From contig CAXHJY010000514.1 of assembly GCA_964016885.1 (NCBI GenBank), positions 1-64,000 on the forward strand: 64,000 nt of DNA. The letters run 5' to 3'. Positions within the stretch are counted from its first letter, which is position 1. Each line of letters opens with the position of its first letter. Both the position numbers and the translations under genes were made by a program. Below are positions 3,152 through 28,661 of this stretch, piece by piece. This stretch comes from Eledone cirrhosa (lineage: Eukaryota). Under the pieces are notes generated by a model, which was given only the letters and a program-made list of their open reading frames with translations, searched no databases and was not told where the DNA came from.

Positions 3152-3873
3152 GCAATTAGTTAAAGATGTACATCCATATATGTATACTGAAATACTAGTA
3201 TGTATATATATATATATATGCAATTAAGTTAAAGATGTACATCCATATATGTATACTGAAATACTAGTATATATATGAATACACACACGTATACATATGT
3301 AGATGTACCAAGTCCCTTCACTGGTCACTCTACTGTGAGCGGCCAGTCACTCTGTACGTAAACACACAGACAAACCGGTTTTTTAGAGTCATACTGGTTT
3401 TTGAGGAAACACCTTTGCTCTATTCTCCAGAAAGCCAGACAAGGAATATTGAACTAGTTTCGTTGTTGTTACAACTCATCAGCAATATTTACCTATCTTC
3501 CGGCCTTTCTAGAGAATCGTAAAAGTACATATCGTTAAATGCTTTTTCTATGAAAATTAGTAGTGGGCAGACTAATTTGCATAGAGTGTGAGTAAGTACC
3601 GGTTCAACGGAGACGATAAAAACAAATAACGAAACGAAATTAAATTTCGTTTCGTTTGTAACTCACTTTTGTATGACTGACGCTTAAACAATAAGTTAAA
3701 GATGTACATCCATATATGTATACTGAAATACTAGTATGTATATGAATACACACACGTATACATATGTAGATGTACCAAGTCCCTTCACTGGTCACTCTAC
3801 TGTGAGCGGCCAGCCACTCTGTACGTAAACACACAGACAAACCGGTTTTTAGAGTCATACTGGTTTTTGAGGA

Positions 3874-7953: not shown

Positions 7954-8142
7954 TGTAAATATATGTATATGTATATATGTATATATATATATATATGTAT
8001 ATATATATGTATATATATGTAGGAGGTGAGTTTTATTGTAGTACAATAAAGCAATGCATATATCGGATAAGAAGCACTCTACAGTTTGTGGACTGGAGTA
8101 TGCATAATATAAGATCAAAAGATGGTTAAAGGAGTTCAATAT

Positions 8143-8211
8143 ATTTTATTATGCGCATTTCAAAAACAAACATCATCAAACAATAATATTTGTGTTTTCA
8201 TCAGATAAAAC
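8143..8211 (-). ncRNA. Type I hammerhead ribozyme in the PLE 3' pLTR
   Basis: GTTTTAT-CTGATGA-16 bp stem II (one mismatch, GU pairs)-GAA-ATGCGCAT-A-ATAAAAT. Palindromic stem III, AUA site. Confidence 0.88.
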
Positions 8212-8954
8212 AGGAGAACATGATATGAAGGCTAAAAAAACACTTGTTGATAGTGCAGTTTTAAATCAACATATGAAAAGTGGTTTTAGATTGATGTGTG
8301 ATATTGGGAAAAATATTTTATTTAGAGAGGGGGGAGAGAAAAGGATGAAAAGGGAAGGAGATGAGAGGGAGAGATGGGTGATAGAGAGAAGAGATAGTTT
8401 TTTATAACAGAGAGGAGATATATTTTATATAGAGGGGTTGAAAACCGTTGGAAGATACTGTATAAATTAAAAATTTTGAAAATTAACGAAGGGAGGATAT
8501 GTGCGAGGAAAAAATATATTATATTTAGGGAGGGGTGGGGGTGGAAAGGATGAAAAAAAGGGGAGGAGATGAGAGTGAAGGTGGAAAGGGAGAGATGGGT
8601 GATAGAGAGAAAGAGATAGTTTTTATAACTGAGAAAAGATATAATGTTTTAATATAGAGAGGTTGGGAACCGTTGGAAGATAATGTATAAATTAGAGGAA
8701 TTTGAAAATTAACGAAGGGAAATTATGTATGGAGATAGAGAGAAAAAAAATAACGAAGGGAGATTATGTATGGAGATAGAGAGAAAAAATAATAATTGTG
8801 GGTGAATATTCTAACGTCAAAAGGAGAAATGTAGGAATTTTAAAATTAGCAAAGAGAAAAAGTTTATGTGTAGGATTTGAGAAAAATAATGTGAAGTTAA
8901 AGTTTTTATATTGAATTCATATGTATTAATAATGAGTTCGTTGATGGGGAGAAA

Positions 8955-9400
8955 AAAATAATAATAAATTAAGGATGAAATTGAGATTAAAAAGATTTAT
9001 GATAGAGAGAAAAAATAATAATGATTGCGGATGAATACTCAAAATGTCAAAAACAAATGTTATTGTTTTACGAGGAGATATAATGAGGGTGATGAGTAAA
9101 CGGGTATTATAGAGTGTATAATGCCCTTTAAAGTAAGGTAGATGGTTATATTTTAAAGAATATATGAGTATATATTAAAAAAATATATAATAATAAATTA
9201 AGGATGAAATTGAGATTAAAAAGATTTATGATAGAGGGAAAAAAATAATAATGATTGCGTATGAATATTCAAAATGTCAAAAACAAATGTTATTGTTTTA
9301 CGAGAAGATAGGATGAGGGAAAAGAGTAAACGAGTATTATAGAGTGTATAATGCCCTTTAAAGTAAGGTAGATGGGTATATTTTAAAGAGGTGTATGTAT
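8955..9400. repeat. About 229 bp tandem duplication in the PLE 3'UTR (further GA-rich duplications at 8300-8790)
   Basis: ataataataaattaaggatgaaattgagatt occurs at about 8958 and about 9187 with collinear similarity. Confidence 0.85.
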
Positions 9401-9444
9401 ATGTGCCTTTGAGAAAAGATTCTAAATTGATAAAGAATTGAATA

Positions 9445-11847
9445 TTAACTGTATACTTTGTGAAAAGTTCTATGGAATTTATGCAGGCAGATGGAAAACA
9501 AATCCGAGCGTCTATTTATTATGGATTCTAGGTTAGAGATAATGGTAAATTTTTCATTTAGGCAGAGATTACAGATTTTAGATAGAGAACTGTTCAAGTA
9601 CGAGGATGCAGAAGAAATCTTTTTCCAAAAGATGTTATATTTAATGTTTTTGTCTTTTAAGGACCATATGAGTTCTGAGAGAGCAGTGTTAGTTCTTTTA
9701 AGTTTGTATTTGAAAGATGAATGATGATTATAGAGACGAGCTTTAAAAGAGGTGGAAGTGGAGCCAAAATAGGTGAAGGAATTGGTGCTAGTTATAATTT
9801 TACATTCATAAATTAAGTTTTTATCGAGGCAATGGTTGTTGAGAGGACATTTATTTTTAATGCGGCAGTTGCAATTAGAGAGATTATTAATGAGTGATCT
9901 AGTGTTTATCTATAGAAGGAATTGGATTGGAGAAGTTGTTTGCGATAGGAATAATAGGAATAATAGTTTCTTGATTTAGAGTTGGATTATGAACATTTAG
10001 CGAAGTTGTGTTTGCGTTGCATTTGGGTTTACAGAAGTTAGCCTAGGGTTTACAATGACGTCAGGAGTACTATTATTGTTATTATGAGATTCAATATTGG
10101 AAGGAAGAGATTTAGTATTTAATATTTTGTTGTTGTGTTTAGAAATGATGTTGGAAATATTGGAGGATGTAGAATACGAAAATTTGATGGTGTGTTTGTT
10201 AAATATTTTACTATAGATATGTGAGGGAGGGAAGCATTTATTTAAGGCACTAAAAAATAATTTAGGAATATTGTTATTAATAGAGATGGAGAAAGGAGCA
10301 TTATACCAGATTATGTTTTTGTATCTAGGTCTTTTATTAAAATTATTGGAATGGTTATGATTAAATATTCTACTGTAAGTTTTCCTAGAATTTGTTTCTT
10401 TATTATATTTGATTTTATCTGGATAGCCGGCTTTAGAAAGTGCGTTATTATAGTAATTGGCGTTAGCATCAAAGATGTTTTTATTAGAAGATATGTTAGA
10501 TATTCTATTTCCAATATTATTAACTATAGCATTCTTGATATTGGTAGGATGGTTAGATTTAAAGTTAACATAATTAAGATTCTCATTGTTTTTATGGTAA
10601 GGGTAATATAGGCCAGTGTCAAGATTAAGAGATACATCCAAGAAATTAGCTAGTTTGGTACTATTATCAAATTCAATTTTTAGGTTATGTTGGTTAAAGA
10701 GATTACGTATATTGTTCTTAATAATATTAAGTTTAACTATATTGCAATTTAGGATAGTAAAGAGTCCATCGTCACGATAAATTCCACCGCGAAGTTGAGG
10801 AATTTTCCGACTCAAAGAGTTCAAAATGAAGATACCAATTAAATCAGTCAATTGGGATGAATCGGATGCTCCCATTGTGATGTCGAAGTTGTTAGAGGTA
10901 TCGGCTCTGGTCCAATATTCGTTGTTGAACTCTAGGATGGTTTTACGTGCGGTGAGGATGATGTGAAGTTCATCTGTGGTGATGTCAGAATATTTAAGTG
11001 CGAAAGATAGAGCATTATTGAGAAGTGAAGGCGAAATGGAGGAATAGTAGCTGGCAATATCGAATTGAATAAATTTTAGTTTGTTTTTATTATCCAATTT
11101 GTTGAACCAGCCAATCACTTCAGAAGTACCAAACCATAAATTTAGGTTTAAAGAAGAGCAATTAGAACTAACCTGTGGGATAATCCTATCCAAGATGGCT
11201 TTACTAACAACCCCCAGATCAGATTTAGAGGGGGCGATTAATCTAACAGGTAGTTCAGTGCGAAAATTGTTTTTGTGATCCTTGAGATTTATCCTCGGAG
11301 TTCTTGGGAGGAATGGTTCGGTCTTTTTTTCAATGCCAAGTTTTGACATAATCTCATAGGCTTCAAGGTTTATGCATTCTAAATTTTCATGGTTGGTTTT
11401 ACGATACTTTTTCCTAAGTTCCTTTAGGATAAGGTTGTTATAATTATCCTTGGAAATACCATATAGGTTATTGGTTTTGTCAGAGTGGACTAAAACATTT
11501 TTTGAGGAATTTAGGTTAGAGATTGTGTTCTTGAGATTTACAAGGTGCTCTTGTCCTTTGTAAGGGTATCTCTTGAATTTAAGATTTTTTATAATTTTAG
11601 TTAATTCTTCCTCGAATTGTGCTAGATTTTTGTTGGAAGGAGGAATTCGTCTGGAATTAAAAAGATGATCGAGGAAGTTGTGTTCTTTGGTATGAAAGTT
11701 CCCTTTTAGGCGCTGGTCATAGAAATAGGCTGTCCATCTAAGTCTTCTTACGAAGGAGTCAGTTTTTTCAATAAGAAGTTTGGTGAATTCAGATTTACCA
11801 GGTATAGGAATGTCTTTAGTAGAATTGGTCATGTTGTAATAATCCAT
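9445..11847 (-). pseudogene. PLE polyprotein: reverse transcriptase + Cys-rich linker + GIY-YIG endonuclease (linker disrupted)
   Basis: N-terminal STKDIPIP..RRLRW, RT motifs FIQFDIASYYSSI, FDITMGASDS and GGIYRDDGL. Same-frame endonuclease at about 9900-9445 reads CNCRIKNKCPL..C, LIYEC..TYFGST..FKARLYNH, CNLCLNEK, INRRSD..CLH. Three in-frame stops in 9910-9999 are consistent with two compensating frameshifts. Confidence 0.92.
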
Positions 11848-12052
11848 GTTGTAGAAGAAGAGGTGAAGGACCATCAAAAGGTATCCAATATGAGAGTAAG
11901 CGCTCAACCGTTAAGGAGCAAGTAAATGTAGGAGGTGAGTTTTATTGTAGTACAATAAAGCAATGCAGATATCGGATAAGAAGCACTCTACAGTTTGTGG
12001 GACTGGAGTATGCATAATATAAGATCAAAAGATGGTTAAAGGAGTTCAATAT

Positions 12053-12120
12053 ATTTTATTATGCGCATTTCAAAAAAAACATCATCAAACAATAATATTT
12101 GTGTTTTCATCAGATAAAAC
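12053..12120 (-). ncRNA. Type I hammerhead ribozyme in the PLE 5' pLTR
   Basis: Copy of 8143-8211 with a 1 nt deletion in stem II. Core intact. Confidence 0.85.
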
Positions 12121-12756
12121 AGGAGAACATGATATGAAGGCTAAAAAAACACTTGTTGATAGTGCAGTTTTAAATCAACATATGAAAAGTGGTTTTAGAT
12201 TGATGTGTGATATTGGGAAAAATATTTTATTTAGAGAGGGCGGGAGAGAAAAGGATGAAAAGCGAAGGAGATGAGAGGGAGAGATGGGTGATAGAGAGAA
12301 AGAGATAGTTTTTATAACAGAGAGGAGATATATTTTATATAGAGGGGTTGAAAACCGTTGGAAGATACTGTATAAATTAAAAATTTTGAAAATTTCATCT
12401 CCTCCCCTTTTTTTCATCCTTTACACCCCCACCCCTCCCTAAATATAATATATTTTTTCCTCGCACATATCCTCCCTTCGTTAATTTTCAAAATTTTTAA
12501 TTTATACAGTATCTTCCAACGGTTTTCAACCCCTCTATATAAAATATATCTCCTCTCTGTTATAAAAACTATCTCTTTCTCTCTATCACCCATCTCTCCC
12601 TCTCATCTCCTTCCCTTTTCATCCTTTTCTCTCCCCCCCTCTCTAAATAAAATATTTTTCCCAATATCACACATCAATCTAAAACCACTTTTCATATGTT
12701 GATTTAAAACTGCACTATCAACAAGTGTTTTTTTAGCCTTCATATCATGTTCTCCT

Positions 12757-12825
12757 GTTTTATCTGATGAAAACACAAATATTATTGTTTGATGATGTTT
12801 GTTTTTGAAATGCGCATAATAAAAT
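12757..12825 (+). ncRNA. Type I hammerhead ribozyme in the inverted pLTR
   Basis: gttttatCTGATGAaaacacaaatattattgtttgatgatgtttgtttttGAAAtgcgcaTAataaaat read directly on the + strand. Confidence 0.88.
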
Positions 12826-12924
12826 ATATTGAACTCCTTTAACCATCTTTTGATCTTATATTATATGTATATATATATATATATGTAATTATATATATAT
12901 GTATATATATAGATATATATTTAA

Positions 12925-18260: not shown

Positions 18261-19547
18261 ATATAATCAAAGTTTAGCAAATAAGAAAATGTTTCAAAAT
18301 AAATGTTAAAAGATTCACTGTACTCACTATGCTTACCTTTACCGAATCGGTTTCGAGTCTCAAAAATAAATGGAGAACAATCCTTGCGGCCTCCCATTGA
18401 AAAGATAAAATCTCGTCAGAACGGTCTTTTCACTCGGAGATGTGTGAAGATAGAAGCAGAGGCAAGGAGGTCAGTCTACTACCACTATAAATAGCAGCAG
18501 TCAGAACGACCAAATGTTATGCATATGGTTGGTCAATACATGTGTCCCTAAACGCTTTATGCGTGTACGGATATATACTTTATTATCATTATTCACCTCT
18601 TGATCGAGATAAAATGTTGTCGTCCTGACTGCTGCTATTTGTAGTAGTAGACTGACCTCCCTGCCTCTGCTATTATCTTTACACACCGCACAGGACAGAA
18701 TTGCTTCCACATCATTCATTCTCATCTCGGGAACTATTTTGAATAGCGCCAGTTCATAATTTGAACTCAGGAATTTTATATTCTCCGCGTGAAAAGGCCT
18801 TCTGACGAGAGTTTATCATTTCAATGGAAGGCCGCAAGGATTGTCCATTTATTTTTGAGACTCGAAACCGATTCGGTAAAGGTAACCATAGTGAGTAAAG
18901 TGAATCTTTTAAAATTTATTTTGAAACTTTTTCTTATTGGCTAAACCTTGATTATATATGTTCTGGCTCGATAATTTATTAACCTCCCATTGAATTACAT
19001 TGGCATATGTTTCGACCGTACATGTGTCCCTATACTCTTTTTGCGTGTAGGGATATATACTTTATTATTATTATACTCCTCTTGCTCGAGATAAAATCTG
19101 GTCGTTCTGACTGCTGCTATTTATAGTGGTAGTAGACTGACCTCCCTGCCTCTGCTTCTATCTTTACACACGGCACTGGGACAGAATTCCTTCCACATCA
19201 TTCATTCTCATCTCGCGAACAATTTTGAATAGCGCCAGTTCGTAATTTGAACTCGGGAATTTTCTATTCTCCGAGTAATAAGACCCGCCAGAGATGAGTT
19301 TATCTTTTCAATGGAAGGCCGCAAGGATTGTCCATTTATTTTTGAGACTCGAAACCGATTCGGTAAAGGTAACCATAGTGAGTAGAGTGAATATTTTAAA
19401 ATTTATTTTGAAAATTTTTCTTATTTGCTAAATCTTGATTATATATGTTCTAGCTCGTTAATCTATTAACCTGCCATTGAACCACATTGGCATATGGTTG
19501 GACAATACATGTGTCCCTAAATGCTTTTTGCGTGTAGGGATATATAC
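18261..19547 (+). mobile_element. Non-autonomous PLE-like/retrozyme element C (about 485 bp unit, 2.1 tandem copies + deleted inverted copy)
   Basis: Unit starts gcatatg at about 18521, 19004 and 19490. 18261-18512 is an inverted, internally deleted copy. Confidence 0.8.
18797..18883 (+). ncRNA. Type I hammerhead ribozyme with extended stem II
   Basis: GCCTT-CTGACGA-GAGTTT..43 nt..AGACTC-GAA-ACCGATTCGGT-A-AAGGT. The inverted copy at about 18335-18427 also has an intact core, while the second tandem copy (about 19282-19370) has a corrupted core. Confidence 0.82.
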
Positions 19548-19549
19548 TG

Positions 19550-19582
<33 letters not shown>

Positions 19583-25041: not shown

Positions 25042-25051
25042 GTATATATAT

Positions 25052-25133
<82 letters not shown>

Positions 25134-25204
25134 GTATATATATATATGTATATATGTATATATATATATATGTGTATATATATATATATGTGTATATATA
25201 TATG

Positions 25205-25235
<31 letters not shown>

Positions 25236-25858
25236 GTATATATATATATGTATATGTATATATATATATATGTATATAAATGTATATATATATGTATATA
25301 TATATGTATATATATATATGTATATATATATGTATATATATATATGTATATATATATATGTATATATATATATGTATATATATATGTATATATATATATG
25401 TATATATATATATATGTATATATATATATGTATATATATATATATGTATATATATATATGTATATATATATGTATATATATGTATATGTATATATATATG
25501 TATATATGTATATATATGTATATATATGTATATATATATGTATATATATATGTGTATATATATATGTATATATATATGTATATATATATATGTATATATA
25601 TGTATATATATATGTGTATATATATATGTATATATATATGTATATATATATATGTATATATATGTATATATATATATGTATATATATGTATATATATATA
25701 TGTATATATATATATGTATATATATATATGTATATATATGCATATATATATGTATATATATGCATATATATATGTATATATATGTATATATATATATATG
25801 TATATATATGTATATATATATATGTATATATATGTATATATATATATGTATATATATG

Positions 25859-25903
<45 letters not shown>

Positions 25904-25980
25904 GTATATATATATATATGTATATATATGTATATATATATATGTATATATATGTATATATATATATATGTATATATATG

Positions 25981-26014
<34 letters not shown>

Positions 26015-26038
26015 TATACGTATATATATACGTATATT

Positions 26039-26084
<46 letters not shown>

Positions 26085-26138
26085 CGTATATATATATGTA
26101 TATATATATATACATATGTATATATATATATATATACG

Positions 26139-26180
<42 letters not shown>

Positions 26181-26321
26181 TGTATACGTATATATATACG
26201 TATATATATATATACGTATATATATATATATATATATATCGCGTGACTATCTCCCCCTCCGCCTTTTGGAATTCTTTCTCACGTCGTGTAGACGCGTTCT
26301 TGAGACTAGTAAAATGAGGTA

Positions 26322-26409
26322 TCCTCTTGATAAGTCGGCAGACCTCGCAAGGACTCTATATCTTTGATATATTGTTTTTGTTTATGCCACGAAACTACGT
26401 AGTCGAGGA
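26322..26409 (+). ncRNA. Type I hammerhead ribozyme, U3-A8 core variant
   Basis: TCCTC-TTGATAA-GTcGGCA..TGCCAC-GAA-ACTACGTAGT-C-GAGGA. 10 nt palindromic stem III, GUC site. Confidence 0.78.
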
Positions 26410-26912
26410 ATTTAGGAACAGTTTAGGTATGATACATTTTATTACTAATTATATCTAAATGTTTCTTCTCTCTTCATAATGTATTTTTAACTCTGATACT
26501 GGTTCAGTCTGGTTCAAACTGAATTGGTCTGTCCCAGTCATTCATTGAGCAACATCGGTGAAGTTGGCACCCTTAACTCACAGTTGGGTGCGGATGCATT
26601 CATGTATATATGTGTGTGTCCGCATGTATCTGTGTGTTTCTAAATGTATTAATAACTCCCTCTGGTCGAGCAATCTTTGAAGTGTGGGGACAACTGGAAA
26701 GCTTCCATTACTCATACTTCTCGCCTTCTTCACTACCTCTTCTACGGCCTCGATATGAATACCCCCTCCGCCTCCGTGGTATTTTTTTCGTGGTTATAAG
26801 AGGCTTAGCTCTGTTTCTCGACCGTTATATCGCGTGACTATCTCCCCCTCCGCCTTTTGGGATTCTTTCTCACGTCGTGTAGACGCGTTCTTGAGACTAG
26901 TAAAATGAGGTA

Positions 26913-27000
26913 TCCTCTTGATAAGTCGGCAGACCTCGCAAGGACTCTATATCTTTGATATATTGTTTTTGTTTATGCCACGAAACTACGTAGTCGAGGA
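26913..27000 (+). ncRNA. Second copy of the U3-A8 hammerhead
   Basis: Identical to 26322-26409, 591 nt downstream. Confidence 0.78.
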
Positions 27001-27304
27001 ATTTAGGAACAGTTTAGGTATGATACATTTTATTACTAATTATATCTAAATGTTTCTTCTCTCTTCATAATGTATTTTTAACTCTGATACTGGTTCAGTC
27101 TGGTTCAAACTGAATTGGTCTGTCCCAGTCATTCATTGAGCAACATCGGTGAAGTTGGCACCCTTAACTCACAGTTGGGTGCGGATGCATTCATGTATAT
27201 ATGTGTGTGTCCGCATGTATCTGTGTGTTTCTAAATGTATATATATATGTATATATATGTATACGTATATATATACGTATATATATATACGTATATATAT
27301 ATAC

Positions 27305-27335
<31 letters not shown>

Positions 27336-27561
27336 CGTATATATATAAATACATATATATATATATATATATGTGTATATATATATACGTATATATATAC
27401 GTATATATATATATATATATGCATATATATATATATATGTATATATATATACGTATATATATACGTATATATATATGTATATGTATATACATATATATAT
27501 ATACATATATATATATACATATATATATCTACATATACATATATATATATATATATATACA

Positions 27562-27606
<45 letters not shown>

Positions 27607-27722
27607 GTATATGTATATACATATATATATATACATATATATATATACATATATATATATACATATACATATATATATATATATATATACATATATATAC
27701 ATATATATACATATATATATAC

Positions 27723-28661
27723 AGAATCAAAGGACTTCCTATAGTCAATGAAAAGCATGACCGCAGGAATTCACTTTGCTCTAGCTCCCACTAATATCCT
27801 CCTCAGCATCAGGTTCTGACTGATGGCAGATCTTCCCTCTCTGAAGCCGTTCTGTTTGCCCCTGAGCAGCAGAGTTATGGCGAAAATGATATCAGATGCT
27901 GAATTTGCCGACGACATAGTTTTGGTGACAAATACAGTGAAGGAGGCAGAGGATTTGATGCAGGAGGTTGAGACTGTGTCGATGAGTGTGGTGCTGAGAA
28001 TGAATGAGACTAAAACAAAATATCTGGTAGAGAATGTTGAGAAGCCAGAGAGGATCACTAATGTAGGCGGTTAGCAGCTAGAATTGGTTGAGGATTTCCT
28101 GTATTTGGGAGCAAAGATTTGGAATACGGAAGATGATGTGGTTGAGAGGATGAGCAAAGCCTGGGCGGCGTGCCACACCTTGAGATCAATGTAGAAGTCG
28201 GACCTTCGTAAAGACCTGAAAATCCGCCTCTTCATTGTTGTAGTGGAGTCTGTGCTGCTGTACGGGTCTGAGACTTGGAGACTGACCAAGAAACTCACTC
28301 CGATGGTGGATGGGTGCTACACGAGAATGCTGAGGATGGCTCTGAACATTAATCAGTATACACTGAGGATGAAAATCTCAGAGCTGTATGGGAGCCTCCC
28401 AAAAGTCAGCTCCAAAGTGACACAGAGGCGACTGAGTTTAGGTGGACATGCTCACCGACATCCAGAATTGACATTGCACTCAGTGCTCCTGTGGGAGCTC
28501 TACATGGACACACTGGAAGAGGAAGACCAAGGTTAACATATGTTGATGCCCTAAGGGCAGACACTGGTCTGTTGGAGAAGCAGGACTTGGCAGTTATAAT
28601 GAGGGACAGAGACCGCAGGAGAGAACTCATCCATGGATCTCGGGAATTTTACTCGCCCTAG
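27723..28661 (+). mobile_element. 5'-truncated, 5'-inverted RTE/RTE-X LINE fragment
   Basis: The + strand gives EFADD, MNETKTKY, FLYLG, ESVLLYGSETW and GRGRPRLTY. 27723-27872 on the minus strand gives the upstream RT motifs [20 protein letters not shown]. Confidence 0.88.

What the first reader, a model, noticed from the sequence alone, without database searches (positions are those of the whole stretch)
26322..27000. Natural U3-A8 covariant hammerhead with branched stem II, in two identical tandem copies
The core reads UUGAUAA instead of CUGAUGA, so both partners of the established C3-G8 tertiary pair are changed compensatorily. That argues for selection on catalysis, and standard CUGANGA searches would miss it. 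Stem II carries two sub-hairpins (CCT/AGG, TATATC/GATATA) and stem III is a 10 nt palindrome. Cuts after 26404 and 26995 would give a 591 nt monomer. Near-identity of the copies implies a young insertion.
Basis: partly seen in the sequence, partly recalled or inferred. Interest (0 to 1): 0.75.

Follow-up and report, generated by a model that had tools for sequence, protein, structure and literature searches.

The report
U3-A8 hammerhead retrozyme with Penelope ends
This is one young copy of a roughly 7,000-copy non-coding jumping element whose RNA is predicted to cut itself with an uncommon but already known ribozyme core, and whose insertion ends suggest that a Penelope-type enzyme copies it, likely from an RNA circle.

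Summary
The motif is real: a type I hammerhead with core UUGAUAA, twice, 591 nt apart, in a 1.7-unit insertion between (TA)n tracts. It belongs to a dispersed family (7,132 motif matches in the genome); U3-A8 is fixed and no C3-G8 member was found. Natural U3-A8 cores are in print (Perreault 2011; about 1,300 in Schistosoma Penelope elements). The branched stem II is not supported: variants back one long unbranched stem and suggest a 6-bp pseudoknot instead. Invariance at 3/8 does not show selection, because free position 7 is equally invariant. The stronger signal is how copies insert: 86 of 90 arm ends fall at two fixed sites, 28 of 31 two-armed insertions use one of each, and an intact Penelope-like family here does the same. 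Variants private to one insertion and shared by all its units are A>G-rich, which fits an edited, unit-length, probably circular RNA template. Cleavage, expression and the mobilising partner were not shown. The scan noted the same two-armed footprint before in other retrozyme families of this genome. Verdict: a structural variant of metazoan non-LTR retrozymes.

The parts
26235..27240 (+). Whole insertion: one-armed, 5'-truncated, 1.7 units of the 591-nt repeat, ending at site B
26315..26320 (+). UGAGGU, 5' strand of predicted pseudoknot (second copy 26906-26911)
   Evidence: pairing inferred
26322..26409 (+). Type I hammerhead copy 1: stem I 26322-26326/26405-26409, core U3-A9 26327-26333, G12-A14 26391-26393, C17 26404
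26334..26390 (+). Unbranched, interrupted stem II: base 26334-26340/26385-26390, middle 26348-26354/26374-26380, tip 26357-26362/26366-26371
26342..26347 (+). ACCUCG bulge of stem II, predicted pseudoknot partner (second copy 26933-26938)
26394..26403 (+). 10-nt palindromic stem III; marginal as a hairpin (+0.8 kcal/mol), stable as a duplex between two units (-12.9)
26405..26995 (+). Predicted 591-nt monomer between the two cleavage sites; 41.6% GC; circular fold z = -6.4 against 40 shuffles
26470..26484 (+). Site A (unit position about 245): family-wide 3' end into (TA)n; read through here and at 27075
26637..26649 (+). Site B (unit position about 410), read through in the first unit
26913..27000 (+). 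Type I hammerhead copy 2, identical to copy 1; C17 at 26995
27228..27240 (+). Site B used as the 3' end of this insertion, joined to (TA)n through a short shared TAT
25043..26239 (.). Left (TA)n-type microsatellite, target tract
27238..27721 (.). Right (TA)n-type microsatellite, target tract

Best explanation
This is a young copy of an abundant non-coding 591-nt repeat family with a fixed U3-A8 hammerhead motif, whose RNA is predicted to self-cleave and likely to circularise, and which a Penelope-like reverse transcriptase/endonuclease likely copies into (TA)n tracts from two fixed start sites. Shown: the motif, the family, its conserved pairing pattern, two fixed 3' ends with one used by each arm of two-armed insertions, scattered 5' ends, and the same two-site pattern in an intact Penelope-like family of this genome. 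Inferred: tandem copies are transcribed; two neighbouring hammerheads pair through the palindromic stem III, helped by a stem I/stem II pseudoknot, and release a 591-nt monomer; the monomer is ligated and A-to-I edited; the Penelope protein nicks both strands of a (TA)n tract, one nick primes at site A and the other at site B, and each reverse transcriptase runs round the circle until it stops, giving head-to-tail units with random 5' ends. This window holds one arm of 1.7 turns started at site B.
For: Family size 5,980 and 7,132 matches, controls 0. In 57 loci taken in order along contig 1: 86 of 90 arm ends at A (45) or B (41); 28 of 31 two-armed insertions have one of each; older subfamilies at 73-89% identity keep both ends. 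A Penelope-like family with an intact 820-aa frame ends at two sites in (TA)n, one per arm in 15 of 16 arm pairs read by eye, matching the two internal start sites shown in vitro for an anole element (PMC11167929). No 5' stop at unit 160-172 among 118 arms with 144 crossings of the cut site, and 133 junctions intact. Private alleles: 14 shared by all units, 35 in one unit, 0 partly shared; A>G 7 of 14 against 2 of 35, Fisher p = 0.001; 7 span both arms, in 5 loci. Structure with unbranched stem II and pseudoknot: 97.5% of 1,545 cells paired, 0 of 500 shuffles as high.
Against: No cleavage, expression or circle was observed. No autonomous partner with a related terminal repeat was found; the window's Penelope-like family shares no sequence with the unit and one candidate proved to be a neighbour. 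The anole paper found hammerhead cleavage unnecessary for insertion in vitro (PMC11167929), so an uncut multimer could be the template. 'Private' is relative to 57 loci only; shared alleles may come from unsampled source arrays. One array of at least 16 units has mosaic, partly shared variants, so some arrays also grow at the DNA level. The A>G excess between subfamilies is weak (19 against 10 G>A, p = 0.14). The pseudoknot rests on one pair with changes on both sides (2 of 47 rows, probably one event), and 42-47 of 47 rows pair at its other positions.
Confidence: 0.72

Rival explanations
1. Same Penelope-driven element, but the template is an uncut linear multimer read from an existing array; the hammerhead is an inherited relic or only trims ends.
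For: Cleavage was dispensable in vitro for the anole element (PMC11167929, parts 1-2). Read-through of the cut site without stops fits this too. Positions 3, 7 and 8 are equally invariant.
Against: A>G enrichment lies in variants shared by all units, not in single-unit ones, and none were partly shared, which needs a unit-length bottleneck at some generation. Stems and core are kept across 73-99% identity.
Confidence: 0.2
2. An ordinary satellite that grows and spreads by DNA recombination, with a fossil hammerhead.
For: One long array has mosaic variants typical of unequal crossing-over.
Against: Fixed A/B ends, (TA)n targets, scattered 5' ends, inverted arms and strand-specific A>G variants; even the mosaic array ends at site A.
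Confidence: 0.04
3. One reading: a monomeric ribozyme with a branched stem II whose U3-A8 pair was selected as a compensatory change in this lineage.
For: CCT/AGG is complementary in the youngest subfamily; U3-A8 keeps the tertiary pair and is active in vitro according to PMC3088659 section 8.
Against: Two of the three CCT/AGG pairs fail in 25 and 30 of 47 variants; the branched fold is 7.4 kcal/mol worse; no C3-G8 relative found.
Confidence: 0.04

Closest known systems
Metazoan non-LTR retrozymes (Cervera and de la Pena 2020, PMC7229834, passages read; Li, Clavereau and Pollet 2026, 10.64898/2026.07.22.740005, part 1 of 5 and passages read)
   Same: Non-coding tandem units, one type I hammerhead per unit, GC under 45%, thousands of dispersed copies, palindromic stem III, proposed Penelope origin.
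   Different: 591-nt unit against about 170-400 nt; U3-A8 core; 57-nt stem II with a predicted pseudoknot; fixed two-site ends and inverted arms were not described in the passages read; circles not shown here.
U3-A8 hammerheads of Schistosoma mansoni Cercyon Penelope-like elements (Cervera and de la Pena 2014, PMC4209133, part 1 of 4 read) and natural U3-A8 cores of Perreault et al. 2011 (PMC3088659, section 8 and passages read)
   Same: Same core covariant; about 1,300 copies in Schistosoma; pseudoknots between stems I and II predicted in about 40% of hammerheads in Perreault et al.
   Different: The Schistosoma motifs are minimal, heterogeneous and mostly single; here a full motif with long stem II sits in a young tandem family.
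Penelope-like element of the green anole, PAc (Frangieh et al. 2024, PMC11167929, parts 1-2 of 4 read); tail and inverted-copy structure of Penelope-like elements (Craig et al. 2021, PMC8557442, passages read)
   Same: AT-rich targets, two internal start sites downstream of the hammerhead, inverted 5'-truncated arm, extension at one end only.
   Different: No protein encoded here; the two sites are 165 nt apart rather than 30-40; arms run through up to about five units.

Membership tests
Type I hammerhead ribozyme | Conserved core with a 3-8 pair, G12-A14, A15.1-U16.1, H17 | tested here: met
   U3-A8 form at both copies; 47 of 47 aligned variants (several core columns were part of the selecting pattern)
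Type I hammerhead ribozyme | Three helices, stem I open, supported by variation | tested here: met
   97.5% paired; one two-sided change each in stem I, stem II and the pseudoknot
Type I hammerhead ribozyme | Match to a curated Rfam model | tested here: not met
   0 hits at gathering score; a library limit for this core and stem length, not a defining biological feature
Type I hammerhead ribozyme | Self-cleavage after position 17 | not testable with these tools
   needs an assay
Metazoan non-LTR retrozyme | Tandem units each with a type I hammerhead, dispersed in many loci | tested here: met
Metazoan non-LTR retrozyme | Non-coding, low GC | tested here: met
   41.6% GC; only short frames or frames that run out of the microsatellite
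Metazoan non-LTR retrozyme | Monomer size about 170-400 nt | tested here: not met
   591 nt; a typical range in PMC7229834, not part of the 2026 working definition
Metazoan non-LTR retrozyme | Expressed as linear and circular monomer RNA | tested here: inconclusive
   no RNA holder listed; only indirect A>G signal
Non-autonomous Penelope-like derivative | Penelope insertion footprint: microsatellite target, 5' truncation, inverted arm, two 3' ends | tested here: met
   same pattern in a coding family
Non-autonomous Penelope-like derivative | Sequence shared with the terminal repeat of an autonomous element | tested here: inconclusive
   none found; only one of many Penelope-like families was compared in full

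The most novel reading that the evidence does not exclude
A hammerhead architecture not found in the papers searched (U3-A8 core, 57-nt stem II whose internal bulge forms a 6-bp pseudoknot with the stem I strand, dimer-forming stem III) drives a 591-nt circular RNA that is A-to-I edited and is copied by two Penelope reverse transcriptases running round one circle from two fixed sites, one from each side of a (TA)n break.
Probability: 0.45. Interest if true: 0.65.

Novelty: new variant of a known kind. Interest (0 to 1): 0.47.

Why it matters
How animal retrozymes get back into the genome is proposed but, in the papers read, not shown. This family names the exact RNA, two start sites 165 nt apart and the DNA target, so the step can be rebuilt in vitro with the published Penelope assay. 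It also offers a natural high-copy U3-A8 ribozyme with a testable pseudoknot, and shows that standard hammerhead searches miss thousands of copies in one genome. The U3-A8 core alone is not new.

Tried and rejected
Rfam scan: nothing. RNA evidence: no RNA holder listed; contigs of four runs of unknown kind laid on the stretch show the unit but say nothing on expression. C3-G8 sister family: 0 with the same stem III; 3 hits with the same stem I strand were unrelated to the unit. Relatives with another second pair in stem II: 0. Autonomous parent: 23 short-stem hits were family members in the 20 loci checked; L198 looked like a coding element flanked by this hammerhead but is a Penelope-like element with its own C3-G8 hammerhead, with retrozyme pieces in the (TA)n beside it, inside an inverted duplication. 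Selection at 3/8: not shown, position 7 equally invariant. Stops at the cut site: 0 of 118 arms; 2 of 39 truncated matches listed start at 166-167, no excess when pooled (hand count). Editing ratchet between subfamilies: weak and unpolarised. Literature: 'hammerhead ribozyme' + 'U3-A8' gave 1 paper; two searches gave none; one search gave no cephalopod retrozyme paper. Supplements were not opened and may hold similar motifs.

Full report
Observation. The window holds, between two (TA)n tracts, a 1,006-nt insertion at 26235-27240 made of one 591-nt unit plus 410 nt; the overlapping parts differ at one base. Each unit carries a type I hammerhead motif: stem I TCCTC/GAGGA, core TTGATAA, stem II, GAAA, palindrome ACTACGTAGT and C17 at 26404 or 26995. 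Rfam does not detect it.

Family. The window is contig 541 of a 3.0-Gb genome. A pattern with positions 3, 7 and 8 left free matches 5,980 places, and one needing U3-A8 plus the palindrome matches 7,132; reversed controls give 0. Of the first 100 listed, 99 are U3-A8 and 1 is U3-G8. Genome-wide, 11 copies differ at 3 (all still A8, slightly longer anchor), 14 differ at 8 and none is C3-G8. Position 7, which is free in hammerheads (own knowledge), differs in 9 copies (slightly looser pattern). So U3-A8 is fixed, but its invariance is at background level and is no proof of selection. An older branch has 610 matches at 73-89% identity. The window unit is 99.8% identical to the best dispersed copies, so it is young.

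Structure. I aligned 47 sequences: the window copy, 27 of the 29 distinct older sequences (one 5'-truncated row and one near-duplicate left out) and 19 younger ones chosen from the 50 distinct sequences. The CCT/AGG hairpin pairs in 59.6% of cells. An unbranched stem II pairs in 97.7%, with many A-U to G-U exchanges; folding agrees (-13.6 against -6.2 kcal/mol; pair probability 0.999 against 3e-6). The freed bulge ACCUC(A/G) is complementary to (U/C)GAGGU just 5' of stem I; its outer pair is U-A in 25, U-G in 18 and C-G in 2 rows. This is a predicted pseudoknot; such contacts are common in hammerheads (PMC3088659, passages). The rows are related, so the shuffle result (0 of 500) is not a probability. 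Stem III is marginal as a hairpin and stable as a duplex between units, as described for dimeric metazoan hammerheads (PMC4209133). The predicted monomer folds at z = -6.4, and in that fold the ribozyme is not formed; hairpins before sites A and B are kept across 22 variants.

Insertion footprint. I fetched all 57 loci behind the first 100 hits. Of 90 arms, 45 end at unit position 236-250 (site A), 41 at 400-420 (site B) and 4 elsewhere, some of these broken alignments; nearly all run into (TA)n. Of 31 two-armed inverted insertions, 28 have one A and one B end; one locus is a local duplicate counted twice. 5' ends are scattered, with none at 160-172 among 118 arms and 144 crossings of the cut site. 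A Penelope-like family with an intact 820-aa frame and many 98-99% identical copies (assigned from its reverse-transcriptase and GIY-YIG-like motifs by eye and from recall, Pfam gave no relevant hit) also ends at two sites in (TA)n, one per arm in 15 of 16 pairs among 20 loci plus the window. This fits the two internal start sites and the cutting of both strands shown in vitro for the anole element (PMC11167929) and the one-sided tail of Penelope-like elements (PMC8557442). That family shares no sequence with the unit, so it shows the kind of enzyme, not the partner. Searches for the partner failed.

Template. Among alleles private to one of the 57 loci and covered at least twice (loci under 93% identity, one duplicate locus, end regions and a microsatellite-like part left out), 14 are shared by all units, 35 are in one unit and none is partly shared; A>G makes up 7 of 14 against 2 of 35 (p = 0.001). 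Seven shared alleles span both arms. This fits one edited, unit-length RNA read repeatedly from both nicks, most simply a circle. The lead for this test came from scan note e1-8803865. Against: privacy is relative to a small sample; a 16-unit array shows mosaic sharing; the A>G excess between subfamilies is weak; cleavage was dispensable for the anole element; no RNA run was listed.

Mechanism. Shown: motif, family, pairing pattern, ends, variant spectrum. Inferred: transcription, dimer-assisted cleavage, ligation, editing, and two-site priming by a Penelope-like protein in trans. I put this at 0.72; an uncut linear multimer as template at 0.2.

Comparison and novelty. It works like, and meets the genomic definition of, a metazoan non-LTR retrozyme (PMC7229834; preprint 10.64898/2026.07.22.740005), with a longer unit. 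Natural U3-A8 is published (PMC3088659 section 8; PMC4209133). I did not find this combination, or the two-site footprint for retrozymes, or the passages read; supplements were not opened. The scan has notes on the same two-armed footprint in other families of this genome, found after my; it has none on this sequence or these words. The label 'cephalopod' comes from those notes and was not tested. Verdict: new variant of a known kind, interest 0.47.

Noticed in passing
window 8014-12864, minus strand: Penelope-like element with C3-G8 hammerheads in its terminal repeats (cores near 8204, 12113, 12764), inverted 5' arm, both ends in (TA)n; its frame (9997-11907, 636 aa) stops early against the 820-aa frame of many near-identical genomic copies.
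   Followed up: partly
window 18266-19550: Second retrozyme-like family: 487-nt period, C3-G8 hammerhead at 18802 with a long stem II, short inverted arm, ends in (TA)n.
   Followed up: no
window near 3482, minus strand: Compact hammerhead-like motif, C3-G8, 14-nt stem II.
   Followed up: no
window 27724-28660: Broken LINE-like reverse transcriptase fragment beside the right (TA)n tract; weak RVT_1 match, E 2.9e-5, below cut-off.
   Followed up: partly
L206 (G000:C1:193992000-194001326): Array of at least 16 units with mosaic variant sharing, ending at site A: secondary satellite-like growth of a retrozyme insertion.
   Followed up: partly
L198:2100-8500: Large inverted duplication holding another Penelope-like family, with old retrozyme pieces and the same flank mirrored on both sides; possible capture of a 3' flank or an assembly artefact.
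   Followed up: partly
window 26316-26326: GAGG/CCUC hairpin in the circular fold would block stem I and the pseudoknot; a possible off-switch in the monomer, speculative.
   Followed up: no
window 26253-26264 and 26762-26773: CCCCCTCCGCCT occurs twice per unit; resembles a GC-box promoter element (recalled, untested).
   Followed up: no
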